64,000 nucleotides of DNA from Mobula birostris (taxonomy: Eukaryota): assembly GCF_030028105.1 (NCBI RefSeq), contig NC_092372.1, positions 200,547,898 through 200,611,897 on the forward strand. Reading direction: 5' to 3'. The notes below the pieces were generated by a model. That model did no database searches. It saw only the letters and a list, made by a program, of their open reading frames with translations, and had not been told where the DNA came from. The position numbers were made by a program, and so were the translations under genes. Positions 6,966 through 57,764 of the stretch are shown here, in pieces (the first letter of the stretch is position 1; every line of letters begins with the position of its first letter).

Positions 6966-8299
6966 TAACCTCCAACTTTCTCTGCAACATCTGCAGTCTA
7001 TGCATGAATATTCTTGTTGGAGCATTTTGCACACAAAAGCGCTACTATGCCTTGCAAGAAAACAAGGTGGGTGTGCCATTTAAAATAAATAGTACACCTT
7101 TAAAATAAGAGCTGGCGACATGCCTCATGTCCTTATGATTCACTTAAACAGCTGAGTGACGGATTGATTGGAGCTGCGTTGTCCTGCAGAATCACAGGAT
7201 GCTAACAGCATAGACGAAAGTTGGCTCATTGAGTCAGTGAGGACCTGCAGTATCAGAAGTAACATGGCTCCAACAGCCATTTTACTGTGTTTTCAAAACA
7301 GTCACTGTGATAATGTCTAACAAATATGCTGAATAAATATTACACTGCTGCCAAATTTCTCCCAGTTGATCTATCAGTGTTCTCAAATATCCAAGAATTG
7401 GCAACTAAACTTGATCTAATGGTGCTTACAGAATCAAATGTTGTAGGCAATAACCCACTGACAGGACAGAGCTACCTGAAGTTGTGAGCGAGGGATAGAC
7501 AGAGGGAAGGGATGCAGTCCTTGGACTCCAGGATTGGACAACTTGGACATTAGGGATTCCATAATCTTGTGTGCAGACAAGGACAAGGAAATTTTCTCCT
7601 AATTAACACCTGCCATTCTCCTTCAGCTACTCCTTATTGAAACATGTATCAAAGTAGCACTAACTTTAGTTAGGGCACAGAACATAGTGCCTGTTCTGTG
7701 ATTTTGAGTCCTTCACCAAGAGAGGCTTGGTTATCGATTGATCTGGCCATAGCATACAGCCACAAATCTGGGTCTGTGGCAAGCAGAGAAAATACCATCA
7801 TAAGGGGTAAAGCTGCCCCTCTTCAACACGTGCAGCTGTCAATGATATTATTGGTAGAGATGACAACTGCAGAGACGCTCTGCAGAGAAAATCCTGATTT
7901 CGCACTGACAGTATCGTCTATCAACCTTAACTCAATTCTCCTGAATCCAGAGTTTCTGTTTTTGTTTCAGTCCTTTGTAGTGCAAAGAGATCAACGTGGT
8001 CATAGTGTTGCTTTGCAGAGGTAATGACTAGAGTTGTGCAGATTGGTTCAAGAACTGAATGGTTGAACCGAAGTAGCTGTTCTTGAAGCTGAAGGCATTG
8101 AACTTGACATGACTGAATATTTAGCTCTTTTTTATTTTTCCTCAGAAAGTATCAGGTCACAGAGTGTTTCCAGCATTTTGTATTTTTATTTGTTGATTAT
8201 CTGCCTGCGGAAAAAAAAAACAAGGGAACTGTCTTCCAGTGGTATTGTTTCTAATCACTTACCTAACAACTATAGTATTTTGCTTCTCTGGAATTACAT

Positions 8300-18262: not shown

Positions 18263-19962
18263 ACCCAAAACTGATTGTTACTCTAATTCTGAATATGCAG
18301 TAGGAAGGAAGAAGGGTCTTTCGAAATTTGGGGAAATAAAATCTGAAGTTGAGCCCAAAGAAATCTTTGGTAAAGCTTGGATGTAGTCCAGACTACAGAG
18401 AACACAAGTTACTTAATCTCTGTACTTGGAAGTTCTGCCAGGCATGACACTGCCCTCCAATATCACAATGATTTTAATTTTTTGGCTGCATCAATCTATT
18501 CCACCAGTTTCAGCAATTGTCTGATTAGGTAGTAACATCGTGGTTGGGTTGGAAGGGAGAAGTTTGGAGACAGGGCACAAAGCTTTAAAATTTTAACCTT
18601 TCCCTTGCAACAATACTATGGGGCAGTGCAAGCAGAGATGGAAGGCAATCTGAAATGGTGGCAGAGGGGTTGTGTTTGGAAAAATTTATAATTTGATCCA
18701 ATGTCTCTAAAATTCCTAGGCTCCTATTCGGTACTTTTTCTGCAAAGTAACTCATTGGATTAAAAAAAAAATGCTTTTTGTTTACAGCTTATGGGAAAGC
18801 TTTATTATCTGCAGTGATAATATATTCTGGGGTGTTGCTCAGAAGTTAGGAAGCTGCAGAATTATGTTGGTATATGTTGAGAGTCCTCGGGGGGGGGGCA
18901 TCACGGGTGAATATAAGTTATCAGTAAGCCTTCATCATTATGACAATGTTCCCCGGGGCTGTGCAATAGATTTCATGGTATCCATAAGTATATGTAAATA
19001 ACTCAGGCTGCTGCCGAGACTGTGTTGAACAGAAAAGTGCTGAAACTGTGAGGTTTACTTTGTTTGTTATATTTGTAGTTAATAACAAAGTCAAAAGGGA
19101 GCCTGCGCTGAGTATGTTGTATGTTCTTTATAACTTTATTTTTTCTGCCTGTTTGACACCTTTCACCATCTTCTTTTGTTTCTCCCTCGGTAGCTGCTCT
19201 GTTATCTTATTCGATTTCCTCTTGTACGATAAAGTCACAATGCAACCTGACAGATTCGAGACATCTGTCTGAGGTAGCTGTGAAGAAATGTCAATGGCTG
19301 CCAGCAGACCTGTAAAATCCGTACTGAACTGGATAAACATAAAGGAATCAGCTGTCGACTGAGAGGGACCGACATTCTTAGAAGGTCAAATTAAACTCAT
19401 AGAATTTTATTGCAAAGCTGCTATCACAATCCCTTCATCTGTGTGGTGCTATGCAATTCAAGACAGGCTCTGATGAATTTCCTGTGAATTACATTGATAA
19501 GAATATCCAATAGGTCAAATTGAACAACCCGACAGCAGGAAAATAACACTAAGAATAGTTCTAACTTTATTCCAATCCAAGTTATTTTTACCTCTGTAAA
19601 ATCCAGTATAAAGTTAGAATGTACTCCATATGCTCTTAAGGACATTTGAGTTCCATTAAAAAAAGTCGCCAAAGCTAGTACATAAAGCTGTTGCTTATCT
19701 CTGACACTTTTTTTTTCCCTTTAAGGGTTATGGTAGCAAAATAACTAAGAAACTAATTAGACATCTAAAGGCCTCAACTAGTGATACAGAGACCTGAATT
19801 CAAATTCCATCTTAGCAGCTAGTTTCATCAATGATGAAAAGCAAAAATCTAAAATCAAGTCAGGAAATTCTGGCATATTGAGCATGGCAAAGTTATTGAT
19901 TTTGCTTCCCTCTGCATTGATGCTACCTGACCACTTGGGAGTCCTGAGCATTTTCTGTTTTG

Positions 19963-20267
19963 TGTCACGATATGTAGATAAGCAGCAGGGATGATTAAGG
20001 TGCAAGGGATCACTTTAAAAATGAACTGCAGAATGACAAGCCATGCAGGGCCACAAGATGAGAGAATGGACACTTAACATGTCACGACAACAAGGTAACT
20101 GAAGGCTAGGAGCAACTGATTGAGGCTGGCTGGTTTGATAAGTGAAAAAGGGTTGTGGATGTGAGCTGGGTTTAAATAGACTGCAGGTGATGAGTTAAAA
20201 ATGAGAGGCAGGTGACTCCTGTTAGCTGTGTAGAGACTGGGAGGAGCCTGTATGTGTAGGCCTGAAA
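19963..20267 (-). repeat. 3' LTR of the Gypsy element
   Basis: Plus strand begins tgtcacga; homologous to 25688-25945; abuts the polypurine tract. Confidence 0.85.
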
Positions 20268-21692
20268 GGACCCTCCCCCCACCCCCTTACAGCCAGTCCA
20301 GGATGATCCTGATTGGTCCAGTGGGATTCTTCAATGAGCGATAGATCCAAGATAAATCTGGACAGCACCCAAGTACTCTCCCCTGGACCATACCCCTCTC
20401 AGTTGTCCAGACAGGGTAGGATGTATATGGTACCTGGACCTTCTCAAATGATGGACTGTGCACACGGACCACCTTCCACTATCCTTGACTCAGGTGGCTT
20501 GAGTGGTCCATGGACAACGGGTTTGAGGCAGGACCTGTGGAAGGTAGGTGTGATCCTGAGGGATGGTGGAAGCTGAAGATGGTGAGTGACTGGGTTGATG
20601 TGATGAGTAATCATAAAGGGATCAATGTACATGGGCAAGAGCTTATGGGAGTTGGTGGGCAGGGTCAGATCTCAGGTGAAAAGCTAGACACAGTCCCCAG
20701 GTTGGAGTAGTCTAGCTTGGCATCTGTAGGTGAAATTGACAGTGGGGATGTCCTTCCATTCACTCCTTCAAGCATTCTGGCAGCAGTGAACCAGGGCCCT
20801 GATGGATGGGACCTCCAATGTTGACTCTTCTGTGGAGAACATTGGGATTTGGTAGTTATGATGCACTGCAAAGGGTGATATACCTGTGGCAAAGAAGGTG
20901 TGTAGCTCAGTCCAGAGCAGATATTTCTTCCATGTGGAAGAGCAAAAGGTGGCAAAGCATTGCAGAAACTTCTCCAGATGCTGATTGGTCCCTTCTAACT
21001 GTCCATTCTTTTGTGGATGATGGCCAGAGGACAAATTCACTGTGGGGCAGAGGAGGGAACAGAAGGCTTTCCAGAAGTGGGAGATGAATTGGGGCCCACA
21101 GTCTGGCAAAATGTCCTGAGGGAAGCTGTGGAGATGGACTACATGTCGGAGAAACGGATCTCCCCTTACAGTGACTGCCGGAAGTTTGGGAGAGCAGTTA
21201 AATGTGCTGCTTTGGAGAACTGGTCCACCATTATCACAATCACATTGGCCCCATTGGAAGGTAGCCAGTCCATGATGAAATCCATAGCGATTTGGGAGCA
21301 TGGGCATCCAGGAACTGGCAGGGGCCACAGGAGCTCAGAGGGCTGCTAACTGGAGGAATTAAACTGGGCACATTGAGGATAAGCAGGACGAACTGATGTA
21401 CATCTAGAATCCCAATGGGCGATCAGAACTGGTGTTACAATCTGTTGTGTGCTTAGATGGCTGGAGAGGGGTGAGGAATGAGCCCTCTGAAGTACCTCAG
21501 AGCACATGGCCACTGGCATGTACATGTGGTTATCAGGTGTGTCAGCCAGTGTAGGTTCATGCTGTAGGGCCTGGGGGTTCTGGTCCTCAAAGTCCCAGAC
21601 AGCAGGGAGAAGAATCTAGTAGGATGGAATGATGGGTGATTTCTATTTCAGCTGGGTCGAACTGCCATAACAAAGTGTCTGCCTTTGTGTTC

Positions 21693-21734
21693 TTGCTGCT
21701 GTATCTCTAGGATTTGCTGCTGTATCTCTAGGAT
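21693..21734. repeat. Perfect 21-bp tandem duplication inside the Gypsy pol region
   Basis: ttgctgctgtatctctaggat occurs twice, head to tail. Confidence 0.9.
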
Positions 21735-22326
21735 TTGATAAAGTCAAATTGCTTGAGGAAGAGGGCCCAGTGACTCTGATGTGGTTGAGTTGGAGGGTCT
21801 GTGGTATGGATACGAAGGTCCAGTGGTCAGTTCAGATCAGGTAGGGCTTGGTGTTTTCTATCAGCCAATGTCTCTGTTCCTCCAAGGCCCATTTGAAGGT
21901 CAGTAGCTCCCTGTCTCCTACTTCATAATGGCACTCTGTAGAGTCGAACTTGTGCAAGACGAAACAAAGGTGTGTCTTCCTATCTGGTCCGCACTGGGAG
22001 AGGATGACCCTGGTGCCTCACATCAGATGCGTTCACCTATACCTCTAAAGGTCTAGAGTGGTTTGGACGGCAGAGAATGGGAGTGATGGTGAAGTGTCTT
22101 TTGAGCTCCCCAGCAGTGCAGTCCATGGCAGCAGACTAAGTTATCCATGAGGGAGGTGACTTTGTGACGAATGTGACAGAAGCAGTGATTAGGCTGTAGT
22201 TCTTGTTGAACCACTGATAGAAGTTCGAACAGCCCAAGAAGCACTGTAGCTGTTTGAGGGAATGTGGTCGGGGCCATTTAATGACAGTGTGCATTTTCTC
22301 TGGGTCCATGGTTATGCCTTGGGCTT

Positions 22327-22830
22327 TGCATCACAACCTGGTACTTCAGCTGCAGTGCTGTAGACAAAAAAGCCTTGCAGAGGATGGTTAGGGGAGCAGA
22401 AAAGTCTTCTGTCCAAGACTTCTTTCAGAGTCGATGCCTCCAGAAGACACCGTACATCACTAAAGACCCCTCACACCCTCTCCATGAACTGTTTGTTCTT
22501 CTGCCATCAGGCAAACGTCACAGGAGCATCAAAACTAAAACCACAAGGCTACTAAACAGCTTCCTCCCACAGGCAGTCAGACTGCTAAATAGCTGCTCCA
22601 CCTGACTCTGCTTTGGACACTTTTAACTTGCACTGGACACTTATAACTTGATTTTAAGTGACATGCGGCTGTTGTGTTTTACTATTTATTGTTATGTTTA
22701 TTAGTTAGTGTTGCATTTGTTATGTTATGATTGCACTGCTCCTGGGAAATGCTGTCTCATTCTGCCCTGCAGAGCTGATGTACGGTTAGAATGACAATGA
22801 AGTTTTTTGAATCTTGAATCTTGAATTGAA
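22327..22830 (+). mobile_element. Rex-type LINE 3' end inserted in Gypsy pol
   Basis: ORF 22375-22605 (KDPSHPLHELFVLLPSGKRHRSIKTKTTRLLNSFLPQAVRLLN); (ttgaatc)n tail. Confidence 0.9.
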
Positions 22831-24831
22831 ATCACCCAGGAAGGAAATGACCGCCATTTCTCTGACTTGCAGTACAACCGGTTTGCAAGGAGATACTTAA
22901 GGAATGAACGGACGCGACAGACGTGGTCGTGTGGGTCCTGGGGGAAGATGAAGGTGTTGTTGAGGTATGGTAATTGAACGCATGCCTGTGTAGCATGTCT
23001 TGGAAGATCTCATTGATGAAGACTTGGAAAACAGCTGCACTGTTTGAAAGTCTGAAAGGCATCACCAAGTATTTGTAGTGGCCAGCGGGTGTTATGAATG
23101 GCAGCTTCCACTCATCCCCAATTTGATGAAGTTCTGAACCCTGCGGAGTGTTTCAAATGTGCTATCCATCAAGAAGAGAGGGTAGCAGTTTTTAATGTTG
23201 ATTTTGTTGAGTACACGATCGTTAATGCAGGGATGAAGACCCCCCATCTTCTTGACAGAGAAGAATCCTTCACCAGCTTAGGGCTGGGATGGTCAGATGA
23301 AGCCCTGCCGTAGAGCTTTAGTGATGTCGTCATCCATATCTTGGGTCTTATGAGGCGAGAGGGAAAACAGATGACCTAGTGGTGCCCAAGAGGCGGTCGA
23401 CTTCCCAGTTGTGTGGTCTGTAAGGCAGCAGGGTGCCAGCCTCCCTTTTTCTGAAAACGATGTCGAAGTTATGGTATTCCTGTGGGAGTTTGTTGAGGTT
23501 AAGGTTTCCTGTCTCTACAGAGTTACGGGATGAAGTCAACCGAGGTTGCAGGCAGGTGGGTCCACATCTCAGCTATTCGATGACCAGACAAAAATGCAGG
23601 TCAAGAGTAGAAAGCCAGGGGTAACACAAGATGAGAGAAAAGTTGGGCGAGTCAATAAACAGGACTTGCAGTGCTCTCTGATCCTCGTGTGCACAGGCTG
23701 TGTGCATGCACTGACCATCCCAGACTCCAAGGGACCTCTGTCATGGGCTGTGATGTTGAAGGAGTGCGAGATAGGCTCAGGTAGAAAGTCCAAGCTGCAC
23801 ACTGTCTGGTCAGTGCCTGCTGCGCTGGAATCCATCAGAGCCTCCTGTGTGCGTAAAGCATCAGGATGTAAAAGAGGACAGTGAGTCAGGCTATGGTGCT
23901 GGAATGAAGGGCTAGTGGTAGCTTATCAGATAAAAGGCCCTGGTCGTGCCATTTTCCCAGGTAGAGTGGGCATTGAGCATGCGTGATCAGCTACTCCACA
24001 GTAAGCCTACAGGTCGTTCCTCCACTGATGCACACGCTCTTGGGAGGGGTAAGGGACCTCTCTGTAACTCCGTGGGTTCTGAAGGTGTGATGATGAGGCT
24101 TCTGCAGTCTGAACTAGTTCAGCGAATGGAACAAGGGTTTTGGCTGACAATTTGGAGGGTCATTCCATTCCATGCTTGACAATGCAGAGGGCCAGAGTGA
24201 TAATGCTTTCAAGGTTGGTGAGCATCTCCAGGGTAGACAGCTCATCTTTCAAGTGATCCAAGAGACCATGATGGTAATAGGCCAGCAACACTTCTGCTTT
24301 CCAGCCATACTCCACCATAAAGGTCCTGAATTCCATGGTGTAATCCAGCACCGAGCGTGAGACTTGACACAGGTGAAATATCTGATCTGCTGCCTCCGTT
24401 CCGCTTCCCAAATGGCTGAAAACCCAGTGCATCTCAGCAGTGAATTCCTCATTTATTGCAGATGGCAGTTTTATTGTCCAAGCTAGCAGTGGCCCAGGTC
24501 AGAGCTCACCCAGTCAGAAGAGAGGTGACGTGGGCAATCTGGGCTCAGTCTGGAGAATATGTGGATGGCTGCCGCTCAAAGTGCATGACACACTGGGACA
24601 GGAAGTTGCGGTGTCAGGTTGGGGATGCATCCAAGGGTTTGAGCACTGGAATCCAGGTTTCTGAGGGAGGAGGTTGACTGGTATAGGGTTGCTGTAATGA
24701 GACAGAGTTGGTTGAGAGTGGTGAGCAGATGGTCAATGGTTTCCTGCTCTTCAGGATTGTGTACTTTTTAAGATGGATGTCTTCCTCTAGGCCAGCAAAC
24801 TCTGTTGGGTCAATTGCCACTTCACTCATCC

Positions 24832-25945
24832 TGTCAGGAAGTGTACAGCAGATTTGACCCAAAAGGAGAGCAGTGGAGATTATTTAACATAGAAACAGAG
24901 AAAACCTACAGCACAATACAGGCCCTTTAGCCCACAAAGTTGTGCTGAACATGTCCCTACCTTTGAAATTACTAGGCTTACTCATAGCCCTCTATTTTCC
25001 TAATGTACCTATCCAAAAGTTTCTTAAAAGACCCTATCGTGTCCGCCTCCACCACCGTTGCTGGCAGCCCATTCCACACATTCACCACTCTGAGTTTAAA
25101 AAAAAACTTACCCCTGAAATCTCCTCTGTACCTACTCCCCAGCACCTTAAACCTGTGTCCTCTTGCGGCAACTATTTCAGCCCTGGGAAAGAGACTCTGA
25201 CTATCCACATGATCAATGCCTTTCATCATCTTATACACCTCTATCAGGTCACCTCTCATTGCCCCAAGGAGAAAAGGCCGAGTTCATTCAACCTATTCTC
25301 ACAAGGCATGCTCCCCAATCCAGGCAACATCCTTGTAAATCTCCTCTGCACCCTTTCTATGGCTTCCACATCCTTCCGGTAGTGAGGCGACTAGAACTGA
25401 GCACAGTAATTCAAGTGGGGTCTGACTAGGGTCCTATATAGCTGCAACGTTACCTCTCGGCTCCTAAATTCAATTCCACAGTTAATGAAGGGCAAAACAC
25501 CGTATGCCTTCTTAACCACAGAGTCAACCTGCACAGCTGCTTTGAGTGTCCTATGGACTTGGACCCCAAGATCCCTCTGATCCTCCACACTGCCAAGAGT
25601 CTTACCATTAATACTATATGATGGCAGAATATGATACTTGACCTACCAAAATGAACCACTTCACACTTCCCTAGGTTGAAGTGGAGAGCAATCACTTTAA
25701 TAATGAACTGTAAAATAACAAGGCACGTGGGACTATAAAACAAGAGAGAAAAGATGCTTAACGTGGCAGGGCACCAAGTTAACTGAAGGCTAGGGGCAAC
25801 TGGTTAAGGTTGGCTGCTTCATATAAGCAAACAAGAATTGTGGATGAGATCTGTGTTTAAGTAGGTGGTGAATTGGAAATGAATCGCAGGTGACTCCTGT
25901 TAGTTGGGTGGGGACGGGAAGGAGCCTGCATGTGCAGGACTGATA
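24832..25945 (-). repeat. 5' LTR of the Gypsy element, interrupted by a CR1
   Basis: tgtcagg at 24832; LTR homology resumes at 25688; ends ctgata before the TSD. Confidence 0.8.
24880..25679 (-). mobile_element. CR1 3' portion inserted in the 5' LTR
   Basis: 8-bp TSD agtggaga (24872-24879, 25680-25687); ORFs 24978-25259 (RGDLIEVYK) and 25391-25588. Confidence 0.92.
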
Positions 25946-48566: not shown

Positions 48567-49126
48567 TTGTTTGTTTGTCCATCATTGATGTCGATGAGGA
48601 CCTCGACACCAATATGGTATCGAGACTAGCGCGTGATTTGGATTTAAGTGAGGGAGAGTTGCGCAGCGTCAGCCTCACTCTCTCTTCCCAATTCCCATCT
48701 TGATCCAGTGGCAAGACAGAGTCTAGACGGCTGGAGATGGGACTAGGCGCAGTGGATGACCAGGACGTCTTCTATGTCTTGTCCTGCTCTACACGTTCCA
48801 CGACACTTGCAGAGACTGCCTTCTTGACCGTTGGACCTTCCATTGGTCTCATCTGCTCAATCCGCCGGAGTCTGTCTTCACATGTTGGGATAGACAACTC
48901 CCTATCTCACCGAGGGTTTGAGACCCATCGGCTACCCTCACCTGGTTTAGCCGGCTTGTCGAAGCCATTGCCTGGGGTGTGGCCTCTGTCGCATGCAAAC
49001 AGCTACGGGGAGCCACAGGTGAGAGCAGAGTGCCAGGTGGGGACCAAAGGTGGACTAACCGCCCTGAAAAGGACGCGACATGTTTCCCCACCAGAGGTGC
49101 TACCCCTCCCTGACACCCCCTACACC
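48567..49126 (-). mobile_element. Young non-autonomous retroelement (probably RTE- or Vingi-derived) inserted in CR1
   Basis: CpG-rich, non-coding, about 560 bp; (caaa)n 3' tail; highly structured 5' end; interrupts CR1 5' sequence; related copy at 14015-14300. Confidence 0.7.
48932..49120 (-). ncRNA. Candidate HDV-like ribozyme with structured J1/2 and a hairpin inserted in L3
   Basis: P1 GGGGUGU/ACACCCC; P2 CUGCUCUCACCUG/CAGGUGAGGGUAG; P3 GGC/GCC; L3 UCCCCGU; P1.1 CC/GG; P4 GGCUU-CGAC-AAGCC; J4/2 GGCUAAAC; all in canonical order. Confidence 0.65.
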
Positions 49127-49859
49127 CTCGCCCTGACAGTTTATCACCGAAGCCCCATTGAGCTAAAGTCCTCCAACTCTGACTCCAATTTGTCACCTGC
49201 TCTATAAAGCTGCCTTTGTAAATTCTTCCTGCTGGCCTAACTTGCTGATGTCCACGTGCCAGTGCAGTCGTGCCTTCATCAAACTGCTGAAGAAAGAATG
49301 ATGATCTTTTAAATTCTTCCCACTGGTCTAACTCACTGACATCCACGTGCCTGCGCAGTCATGCCTCGATCAAACAGCTGAAGGAAAAAGATGTATATAT
49401 CTATAAATTTATCCAAACAATCATCCACTCAGCTTGTCTTCTCATTTTCAAAAATCCTCACTACTTGTTGTACTTTAAATTGTTACGGTCACATAATTAT
49501 CTCCATGATACTGTATGTGGTGCAGTTTACATGAAACTTAACATAAACATTGGAAAAAAAAAACTCAAATTAACAACTGCAACTAAGTCAATTCAACAAT
49601 ATATTTGGAACATGACAGAATATTATGAAATCACTTGGACCATTCACTCTTTTACTTATCTTTCAGCACTCCCTGTCTACCTGGCTCTGCTTTCAAATTG
49701 TTCTGTATTGTGACTTTCCTTCACACCCTACCTGTTCGAGTTTCACCTTTTGTGGCGATTGCTTCCCCCCCCCCCCATCTGAGACAGGTACTTACTGTTC
49801 CCATTTGAACTTTCCACCCACAACCTTGCTAGTAATAAAATGTCCTGTCTAGTTATGCA

Positions 49860-56032: not shown

Positions 56033-57764
56033 CATTGGTGCTAGCAAGTTTGTGAACCCCGTAGAATTTTCTCTTTTTCAGCATAAATATGACATAAAAG
56101 GTGATCAGTTCTTCATGTAAGTCCTAAAACTAGATAAAGAGAACCTAATTAAATAAATAACACAAAACATTATATTTGTTCATTTATTTGTTGAGAAAAA
56201 TGATCCAATATTACATGTATTTGTTGGAAAAGGTATGTGAACCTCTGGAGTAATGCCTTTTACAAAAGCTATTTAGAATCAGGTGTTCCAAGCAAGGAGA
56301 TGAGATTGGAGATGTGAGTTGTAGAGATGCCCTGCCCGATTTAAAAAAAAGACATAAACAGGAGAAAATCTGCAGATGCTGAAAATCCGAACAACACAGA
56401 AATGGTGGAGGAACTCAGCAGGCCAGGCAGCATCTAGGAAAAGAATTCAGTTGACATTTCAGGCCAAAACCCTTCAGCAGGACTAAGACACACAAAGTCA
56501 GGTTACTGACAGAACCTACTCTACTCAAAGAGATCTGCTTATGTGCACCATCCCTTGATCAAAACAACTTTCAGAGGATCTTAGAAGAATTGTAGAGCTG
56601 CATGAAGCTGGAGAAAAACTACAAAAGCATTTCTAAAAGACCTGAGTGTGCATCACTCCACAGTAAGAGAAATTGTCTACAAATGCAGGAAACTCAGTAC
56701 TGTTGCTACTCTTCCTAGGAGTGGGTATCCTTCAAAGATCACACCAAGAACACAAAATGCATTGCTGAAGGAAGTGAAAAGGAACCCAAAGGTAACCGCA
56801 AAAGGCCCGCAGAAATCTTTAGAACTTGCTATTGTCTCTGTTCATGTGCCCACCATAAGAAGAACACTGAACAAGAATGGTGTTCACGGAAGGACACCAT
56901 GGAGGAAACCTCTGCTCTCCAAATAAAACACTGCTGTACATCTAATGTTTGCAAAAGACCACCTGGGTGTTCTACAATGTTTCTGAGATAACATTCTGTG
57001 GACAGGTGGGACAAAAGTTGAGTTTTTGGCAGAAATACACATTGCTATGTTTGGAGGGAAAAGGGCACTTCCACAGCAACACCAAAACCTCATCACAACT
57101 GTGAAACATGGTGGAAGGAGCATCATGGTTTGGGGCTGCCTTGTTGCCTCAGGCCCTGGATAACTTGCAATCATTGAGGGAACAATGAATTCAAAATTGT
57201 ATCAAGACATTTTATAGGAGAATTTCAAGGTAGCAGTCCGGTACCTGAAGCTTAGAAGAAGTTCGATAATGCAACAAGACAATAATCCGAAAGACAAGAG
57301 TAAATCAACAACAGAACGGTTTAAAAAATATAAAATTCGTGTTTCGGAATGGCTAAGTTAAAGTCCTGACCTTAGTCCTGTAGAAATGTTGTGGAAGGAC
57401 CTGAAGCAAGCAGTTCATGCAAGGAAGTCCTACAAGTTGAGGAATGGCCAAAAAATTCCTCCAAACCGATGTACAGGATTAATCAACAGTTACCAGAAAT
57501 GTTTGGTTGAAGTTATTGCTGTGCAAGGCAGTCTCACCAGTTACTGAAGGCAAAGATTTACATACTTTTTCCAACAATACATGTAATATTGGATCAATTT
57601 TCTCAACAAATAAATGAAGTATAGAGATTTTTTATGTTATTTATTTAATTGGGTTCGCTTTATCTAGTTTTTGGACTTACATGAAGGTCTGATCACATTT
57701 TAGCTCATATTTATGGAAAAATAGAGAAAATTCTACAGGGTTCACGAACTTTCTAGTACCACTG
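56033..57764 (+). mobile_element. Tc1 DNA transposon, Frog Prince-like, with about 210-bp TIRs; transposase pseudogene about 56550-57547
   Basis: TA duplication (56031-56032, 57765-57766); long TIRs; STVREIVYK...LPRSG.PSKITPR...RKPLLSK; QQDNNPK...SPDLSPVEMLW with a 34-residue D-E spacing; first catalytic D mutated; stops and frameshifts. Confidence 0.95.
56355..56484 (-). mobile_element. 130-bp PLE-derived hammerhead-headed repeat inserted in Tc1
   Basis: 6-bp TSD aagaca (56349-56354, 56485-56490); minus strand begins AGUC CUGCUGA A GGGU UUUG GCCU GAAA UGUC AACU. Confidence 0.85.

What the first reader, a model, noticed from the sequence alone, without database searches (positions are those of the whole stretch)
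48932..49120. HDV-like ribozyme fold with a hairpin inserted in L3 at the 5' end of a young non-coding retroelement
Seen (minus strand; plus coordinates given): all HDV elements occur in nested double-pseudoknot order. P1 GGGGUGU (49113-49119) pairs with ACACCCC (48974-48980). A long J1/2 has its own 8-bp stem (49085-49092 / 49036-49043). P2 is 13 bp (49016-49028 / 48932-48944). P3 is GGC/GCC. L3 starts UCCCCGU (compare HDV UCCUCGC). GG for P1.1 lies at 48971-48972, P4 is GGCUU-CGAC-AAGCC, and J4/2 GGCUAA carries the would-be catalytic C at 48950. The predicted cleavage site is within about 6 nt of the element's 5' boundary. Known: R2, RTE and L1Tc/ingi elements carry 5' HDV-like ribozymes. 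Unusual: about 21 nt forming a stem-loop (48984-49004) sit at the position of HDV's bulged U27, which fixed-length L3 descriptors would miss. Inference: a parasitic retro-RNA that releases its own 5' end from host introns instead of using a Pol III promoter.
Basis: partly seen in the sequence, partly recalled or inferred. Interest (0 to 1): 0.85.

Follow-up and report, generated by a model that had tools for sequence, protein, structure and literature searches.

The report
Retrotransposon ribozyme with extra core hairpin
This is one damaged copy of a short jumping element, made of just the two ends of a longer retrotransposon and present in thousands of copies, whose front end matches the fold of the hepatitis-delta self-cutting RNA with an extra hairpin in a core loop, and whose intact relatives likely cut their RNA free at the element's first base, nine bases upstream of the site first proposed.

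Summary
The motif heads a ~560-nt non-coding repeat (>3,000 candidates genome-wide) made of the first ~517 and last ~45 nt of a 4-kb RTE-type LINE of the same genome, which carries the same head. P1, P1.2, P2 and P4 show compensatory changes. The L3 hairpin recurs in a second family and three metagenome elements, but with one-sided (wobble) changes only; sister elements have a normal 7-nt L3. This copy lacks G1 and one P1.1 G and is likely dead; 205 copies keep a perfect core. Cleavage is untested and no host intron was found. Ribozyme-headed two-part retroelements are known; I found no L3 helix in the papers searched (key papers not held). The scan noted this motif before on other DNA.

The parts
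48567..49127 (-). Copy of a ~560-nt two-part non-autonomous RTE-type retroelement; lacks family nt 1 (A at 49128); no clear target-site duplication for this copy
49122..49128 (-). P1 5' strand (first GGGGUGU unit); predicted cleavage 5' of 49128, where the family has G and this copy A
49028..49118 (-).
   Evidence: pair probabilities 0.93-0.98 in L012
49015..49026 (-). P2 5' strand (extended, about 12 pairs)
49012..49014 (-). P3 5' strand GGC
49005..49011 (-). Core L3 nucleotides UCCCCGU (HDV U20, C21-C22, G25 equivalents at 49011, 49010-49009, 49006)
48984..49004 (-). 21-nt L3 insertion: predicted 5-bp stem 49003-48999 / 48989-48985 (outer pair broken in this copy), loop with invariant CAUG at 48995-48992
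48974..48983 (-). P3 3' strand GCC (48983-48981) and P1 3' strand ACACCCC (48980-48974)
48968..48973 (-). P1.1 GG (48973-48972; 48973 is A in this copy, G in the family) and J1.1/4
48952..48967 (-). P4, 6 bp with 4-nt loop; 4 of 6 pairs change on both sides among relatives
48947..48951 (-). J4/2 with the predicted catalytic C at 48950
48934..48946 (-). P2 3' strand with one bulged C (48944)
48602..48624 (-). Junction of LINE 5' UTR and LINE 3' end (about 48613), set in an 11-bp inverted repeat whose arms lie about 3.5 kb apart in the parent LINE
48567..48613 (-). Last ~45 nt of the parent LINE with short CAA-type tail

Best explanation
The motif is the 5' head of an RTE-type LINE and of its internally deleted, non-coding derivative, and in intact copies it likely acts as an HDV-like ribozyme that cuts the RNA just before the element's first G (window 49128), with the L3 hairpin predicted to project from the core as a tolerated extra helix. 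Shown: shared ends with the parent LINE, 5' ends of copies, target-site duplications, conservation of all HDV core positions, compensatory changes in P1, P1.2, P2 and P4, and recurrence of the hairpin. Inferred: read-through transcripts from flanking promoters are trimmed by self-cleavage; the long P1.2 plus extended P2 would 'pinch' P1 and P2 together as in drz-Agam-2-1 (PMC4908430); the LINE's endonuclease/reverse transcriptase would then copy the short RNA from its 3' tail by target-primed reverse transcription. This copy is likely inactive.
For: Family: 3,219 first-look candidates. Parent: 8 of 8 long family-1 copies examined share nt 1-517/521 (one is cut at nt 84) and the last ~45 nt with the short element; they encode APE endonuclease and RT. 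5' ends: of 84 copies not picked for their 5' end, 33 start at nt 1, 54 at nt 1-5 and 2 at nt 10; duplications often end at nt 1. Pairing over 7 rows from 5 lineages: 94.6% of cells paired, 13 pairs changed on both sides (shuffle mean 4.5, 0 of 500); P1 100%, P3 100%, P4 95%. L166 (U2-A) and L159 (A6-U) change P1' together with the first unit, not the second. Descriptor hits in 9 of 81 related 5' regions, 0 of 81 on the reverse strand; with the catalytic position set to A, G or U: 1, 0 and 2. Hairpin: family 2 of this genome (26 matches), L166, L174, L214, and a variant in run X13; stem 97% paired while the loop flanks vary in length. 205 copies keep an exact 74-nt core; only 1 copy matches a hairpin-less pattern.
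Against: No cleavage data. The hairpin stem has 0 of 5 pairs changed on both sides (2 invariant, 3 one-sided), and the pair closing CAUG is unpaired in 2 of 7 rows; its pair probability is only about 0.45 in L012. The structure was drawn from these same sequences and only 5 lineages are independent. Within family 1 there is no covariation: 2 of the roughly 26 copies with the P1' C-to-U change that reach the 5' end carry the matching G-to-A. A pile-up of 5' ends at nt 1 would also follow from an internal promoter. Hairpin-bearing heads are not one clade on the endonuclease tree (3 changes). The RTE label rests on domain order, the names of homologues and recalled motifs, not on a tree with named references.
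Confidence: 0.78

Rival explanations
1. The fold is conserved for another reason (internal Pol II promoter, translation element, or binding site for the LINE protein); the hairpin slows or blocks cleavage, and transcription start defines the 5' end.
For: Copy starts at nt 1 fit a promoter too; the L1Tc Pr77 element is both promoter and ribozyme (PMC3383444, start of abstract). A 19-22-nt insertion next to the active-site loop is unlike the 7-8-nt L3 of HDV and CPEB3 (bioRxiv 2022.09.22.508989, passages).
Against: Catalytic C, A78, U20/G25 and P1.1 equivalents are kept in all hairpin lineages while neighbouring L3, P4 and J4/2 letters change; the 5' end falls exactly on G1 of P1.
Confidence: 0.12
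2. One reading: P1 forms with the second GGGGUGU and the RNA is cut at 49119, at least part of the time.
For: The second unit is fully complementary to P1' in family 1; 2 of 84 copies start at nt 10 and a third (L098) does so by its duplication. PMC3774820 section 18 proposes that duplicated P1 segments can both be used in R2.
Against: 81% paired with no compensatory change; the second unit is held in P1.2 with probability 0.93-0.98; nested energy -46 versus -68 kcal/mol; 54 of 84 copies start upstream of it, which cleavage there could not produce.
Confidence: 0.05
3. P3 pairs with the GCU at the start of the insertion, giving a normal 8-nt L3, and the extra sequence lies between P3 and P1' instead.
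For: GGC can pair with GCU (one G-U), which leaves an HDV-length loop.
Against: L174 has GUU there; GCC is invariant in 7 of 7 rows and directly follows a 7-nt L3 in the sister L159; in HDV-like ribozymes P1' lies immediately downstream of L3/P3 (PMC3774820 section 18).
Confidence: 0.05

Closest known systems
drz-Agam-2-1, large HDV-like ribozyme with P1.2 (Webb et al. 2016, PMC4908430; part 1 of 4 and passages read)
   Same: Nested double pseudoknot, long structured P1.2 in J1/2, extended ~12-bp P2, short linkers.
   Different: Here L3 is 26-29 nt with a predicted hairpin; the parts read describe none. Activity shown there, untested here.
HDV-like ribozymes at the 5' ends of RTE and other non-LTR elements (Ruminski et al. 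2011; not held, seen only through passages of PMC5786205 and PMC6765202)
   Same: Ribozyme at the 5' terminus of an RTE-type LINE, proposed to free it from co-transcripts.
   Different: L3 hairpin; vertebrate host. I could not check whether that paper or its supplement shows an L3 insertion.
Bipartite non-autonomous RTEs (Bov-A, RTESINE1/2, WALLSI3, MAR4_MD; Kojima 2018, PMC5786205, passages read)
   Same: Only the 5' and 3' parts of the parent LINE, no ORF, parent's 5' end kept.
   Different: Parent and derivative both present here; junction set in an 11-bp inverted repeat.
R2 SIDEs (Eickbush and Eickbush 2012, PMC3414825, abstract read); NARTc/SIDER with L1TcRz (PMC4035085, passages read)
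   Same: Short internally deleted element that keeps a 5' HDV-like ribozyme and a 3' recognition end.
   Different: Different LINE clade; dispersed insertion with ~7-15-bp duplications rather than rDNA targeting; L3 hairpin.

Membership tests
HDV-like ribozyme | P1, P1.1, P2, P3, P4 in nested double-pseudoknot order | tested here: met
   (family and relatives); P1 and P1.1 damaged in the window copy
HDV-like ribozyme | G1 opens a 7-bp P1 at the RNA 5' end | tested here: met
   33 of 84 copies start at nt 1; P1 100% paired; window copy has A
HDV-like ribozyme | U20/G25 in L3, two C-G pairs of P1.1, catalytic C and A78 in J4/2 (list from PMC6326823 passages) | tested here: met
   Of 49 family-1 copies: C 48, A78 49, U20+G25 47, P1.1 35, all features 17; kept in family 2, L166, L174, L214
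HDV-like ribozyme | L3 of 7-8 nt | tested here: not met
   26-29 nt in hairpin lineages; 7 nt in 6 of the 9 descriptor-positive related loci. Treated as a variation on the fold, not as a test of catalysis.
HDV-like ribozyme | Mg2+-dependent, C-dependent self-cleavage 5' of G1 | not testable with these tools
   needs an in vitro assay
HDV-like ribozyme | Match to an Rfam HDV-type model | tested here: not met
   No hit; relatives with a normal L3 are missed as well, so uninformative
Bipartite non-autonomous RTE | Made of the 5' and 3' ends of an autonomous LINE | tested here: met
Bipartite non-autonomous RTE | Parent encodes APE endonuclease followed by RT, of the RTE clade | tested here: inconclusive
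   Domains shown; clade label from homologue names and recalled motifs; no tree with named references
Bipartite non-autonomous RTE | Target-site duplications, microsatellite tail, 5'-truncated copies | tested here: met
Pol III SINE | tRNA, 5S or 7SL head with A and B boxes | tested here: not met
   No B box in L012, L259, L174; one one-mismatch B box in L214; the tRNA-like insert of L006 and L083 gives both boxes as positive control; ARAGORN 0 in 5 sources

The most novel reading that the evidence does not exclude
The L3 hairpin is a working fourth arm at the HDV active site: its invariant, self-complementary CAUG loop docks a protein or a second RNA and gates cleavage, and the hundreds of intact copies in this vertebrate genome cut host transcripts that run through them.
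Probability: 0.2. Interest if true: 0.75.

Novelty: new variant of a known kind. Interest (0 to 1): 0.45.

Why it matters
L3 helps build the HDV active site and is described as 7-8 nt. A natural helix there, if cleavage is confirmed, widens the fold, shows that fixed-length descriptors miss a branch of these ribozymes across animals, and offers an engineering site beside the core. Sister elements with and without the hairpin give a ready comparison. The retroelement biology itself (5' ribozyme, two-part parasite) is already known.

Tried and rejected
Rfam: no match. Covariation within family 1: none. RTE families found through PF20049 are not the parent. Viral contigs: no protein relative; 83 pattern matches, none with the fold on inspection. 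Genome contigs: 3 loci, no model hit. Sequencing runs: no RNA holder listed; all 7 runs laid were contigs, which cannot show RNA starts or expression. Single origin of the hairpin on the endonuclease tree: not supported, 3 changes; L255 was dropped for low coverage. Papers not held: Ruminski 2011, Webb 2009, a Webb and Luptak review, Weinberg 2015; their text or supplements could show an L3 insertion. Eight literature searches gave no paper describing one. No supplementary file was opened.

Full report
Observation. A descriptor that allows a long L3 finds only this site in the window and no site of similar P2 length in 40 simulated windows (descriptor made after seeing the motif). Pseudoknot-free folding is unremarkable (z -0.94) and Rfam has no match.

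The element. A genome search gave 3,219 candidates, 40 scored. The 29 other copies fetched are mostly about 560 nt, non-coding, with CAA/CCAA/CTGAA tails and often 7-15-bp target-site duplications. Two copies, L094 and L101, continue after nt ~517 into an ORF. Following them gave a LINE of about 4 kb with APE endonuclease and RT domains. All 8 long family-1 copies examined share the 5' part (one is cut at nt 84) and the last ~45 nt with the short element. The short element is therefore an internally deleted derivative, and the ribozyme-like head is inherited from the LINE. Protein relatives at up to 86% identity occur in a shark, lizards, turtles, toads, corals, crustaceans and tapeworms. I call the LINE RTE-type from domain order, these names and recalled motifs. 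The window copy lies in sense in the 5' part of a decayed CR1-type LINE (esterase-like and endonuclease hits downstream); no host exon was found.

Register. Of 84 copies not chosen for their 5' end (4 duplicates or rearranged copies dropped), 33 start at nt 1 (window 49128), 54 at nt 1-5, 2 at nt 10 and 22 at nt 21 or later. Beyond nt 1 the flanks are unrelated. Family 2 of this genome starts at the same unit, and so does the deepest contig of run X13 (a contig end, not an RNA start). In L166 and L159 a change in P1' is matched in the first unit and not in the second. The second unit forms the base of a long P1.2 hairpin (probability 0.93-0.98 in L012) with two-sided changes in 6 pairs. This matches the 'pinch' architecture of drz-Agam-2-1: P1.2 plus a 12-bp P2 (PMC4908430, part 1 of 4). 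Duplicated P1 segments are discussed for R2 in PMC3774820 section 18.

This copy. It has A in place of G1, A in place of the first P1.1 G, and a broken outer hairpin pair, so it is likely dead. Of 49 family-1 copies scored, 17 keep every core feature, and 205 places in the genome match a 74-nt core exactly.

The L3 hairpin. I scanned the regions upstream of 81 related endonuclease genes (80 metagenome loci and L235; many contigs do not reach the element's start). Nine carry the fold on the sense strand, none on the reverse strand; replacing the catalytic C by A, G or U gives 1, 0 and 2. Three of the nine (L166, L174, L214) have the L3 insertion and six have a 7-nt L3; L159 has nearly the same P1, P2 and P3 without the insertion, which fixes GCC as P3'. 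A second family in this genome, about 77% identical, also has it (26 matches), as do a variant in run X13 and a decayed L156. The insertion is 19-22 nt, the 5-bp stem is 97% paired and CAUG is invariant. Against: the stem has no pair changed on both sides, the pair closing CAUG fails in 2 of 7 rows, the structure was drawn from these sequences, and family 1 alone shows no covariation. Only one genomic copy matches a hairpin-less pattern (L347), which is weak evidence. On the endonuclease tree the hairpin needs 3 changes, pointing to an old origin with losses or to exchange of 5' UTRs. That the HDV position replaced (U27) is extruded and dispensable is recalled, not from a call.

Mechanism. Most likely (0.78) intact copies are transcribed by read-through, fold the nested double pseudoknot, cut before G1 using the C at the 48950 equivalent, and are copied by the LINE protein from the 3' tail. 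There is no Pol III box pair in the head; an internal Pol II promoter is not excluded. T precedes G1 in 36 of 52 full-length family-1 copies (background 30%, p 7e-9), 10 of 13 in family 2, and 10 of 22 truncated copies. U at -1 is the best context for HDV cleavage (PMC1874588, start of abstract), but the bias may simply come from how the reverse transcriptase joins the 5' end. The deletion junction lies in an 11-bp inverted repeat whose arms are about 3.5 kb apart in the parents. I saw the repeat in the short copies; the idea to test it in parents came from earlier scan notes. Family 2's short form has a different junction and a 3' end that matched none of the 11 long copies examined.

Comparison and novelty. 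RTE 5' ribozymes and two-part non-autonomous LINEs are known (PMC5786205 passages; PMC6765202 passages; PMC3414825 abstract). HDV and CPEB3 L3 loops are 8 and 7 nt (bioRxiv 2022.09.22.508989 passages). Eight searches found no description of an L3 helix, but the most relevant papers were not held and no supplement was seen. Rfam also misses the normal-L3 relatives. Verdict: a real, conserved variant of a known ribozyme on a known kind of retroelement, with activity untested; interest 0.45. The scan had noted the same motif in this and other genomes; those notes are not counted as support.

Noticed in passing
L006, L077, L083, L093 (downstream of element nt ~517): Three-part subfamily: ribozyme head, a ~150-nt tRNA-like SINE with A and B boxes, then the same LINE 3' end; the target-site duplication spans the whole in L006, L077 and L093.
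   Followed up: partly
L238-L263: Second, ~77% identical family with the same hairpin ribozyme, its own long copies, and a short form ending in an ACG-type tail that matched none of the long copies examined; possibly a hybrid of two LINEs.
   Followed up: partly
position -1 of full-length copies: T in 36 of 52 family-1 and 10 of 13 family-2 copies, often the last base of the duplication; several extra 5' additions resemble the first repeat unit.
   Followed up: partly
window 48602-48624; L123, L350-L355, L357: 11-nt reverse-complementary arms in the parent's 5' UTR and 3' end, joined at the deletion junction.
   Followed up: partly
window 49099-49102 (minus) and relatives: A 4-nt UAGY bulge in P1.2 is kept in all 7 rows of alignment A3 and in L159 while the flanking pairs covary.
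   Followed up: no
L103, L109, L122 5' UTR: Another RTE family of this genome begins with a motif resembling a twister ribozyme (recalled resemblance; Rfam gives no hit for L103 and L122).
   Followed up: partly
L347: Single family-1 copy in which the L3 insertion is deleted, leaving an 8-nt loop.
   Followed up: partly
window about 18300-24900 (minus); 56606-56923 (plus): Decayed LTR-retrotransposon remnant (gag, RT and SH3 hits) and a Tc1-type transposase fragment.
   Followed up: no
window 7930-8151 (minus): Weak JmjC match, E 0.008, below the cut-off; probably chance.
   Followed up: no
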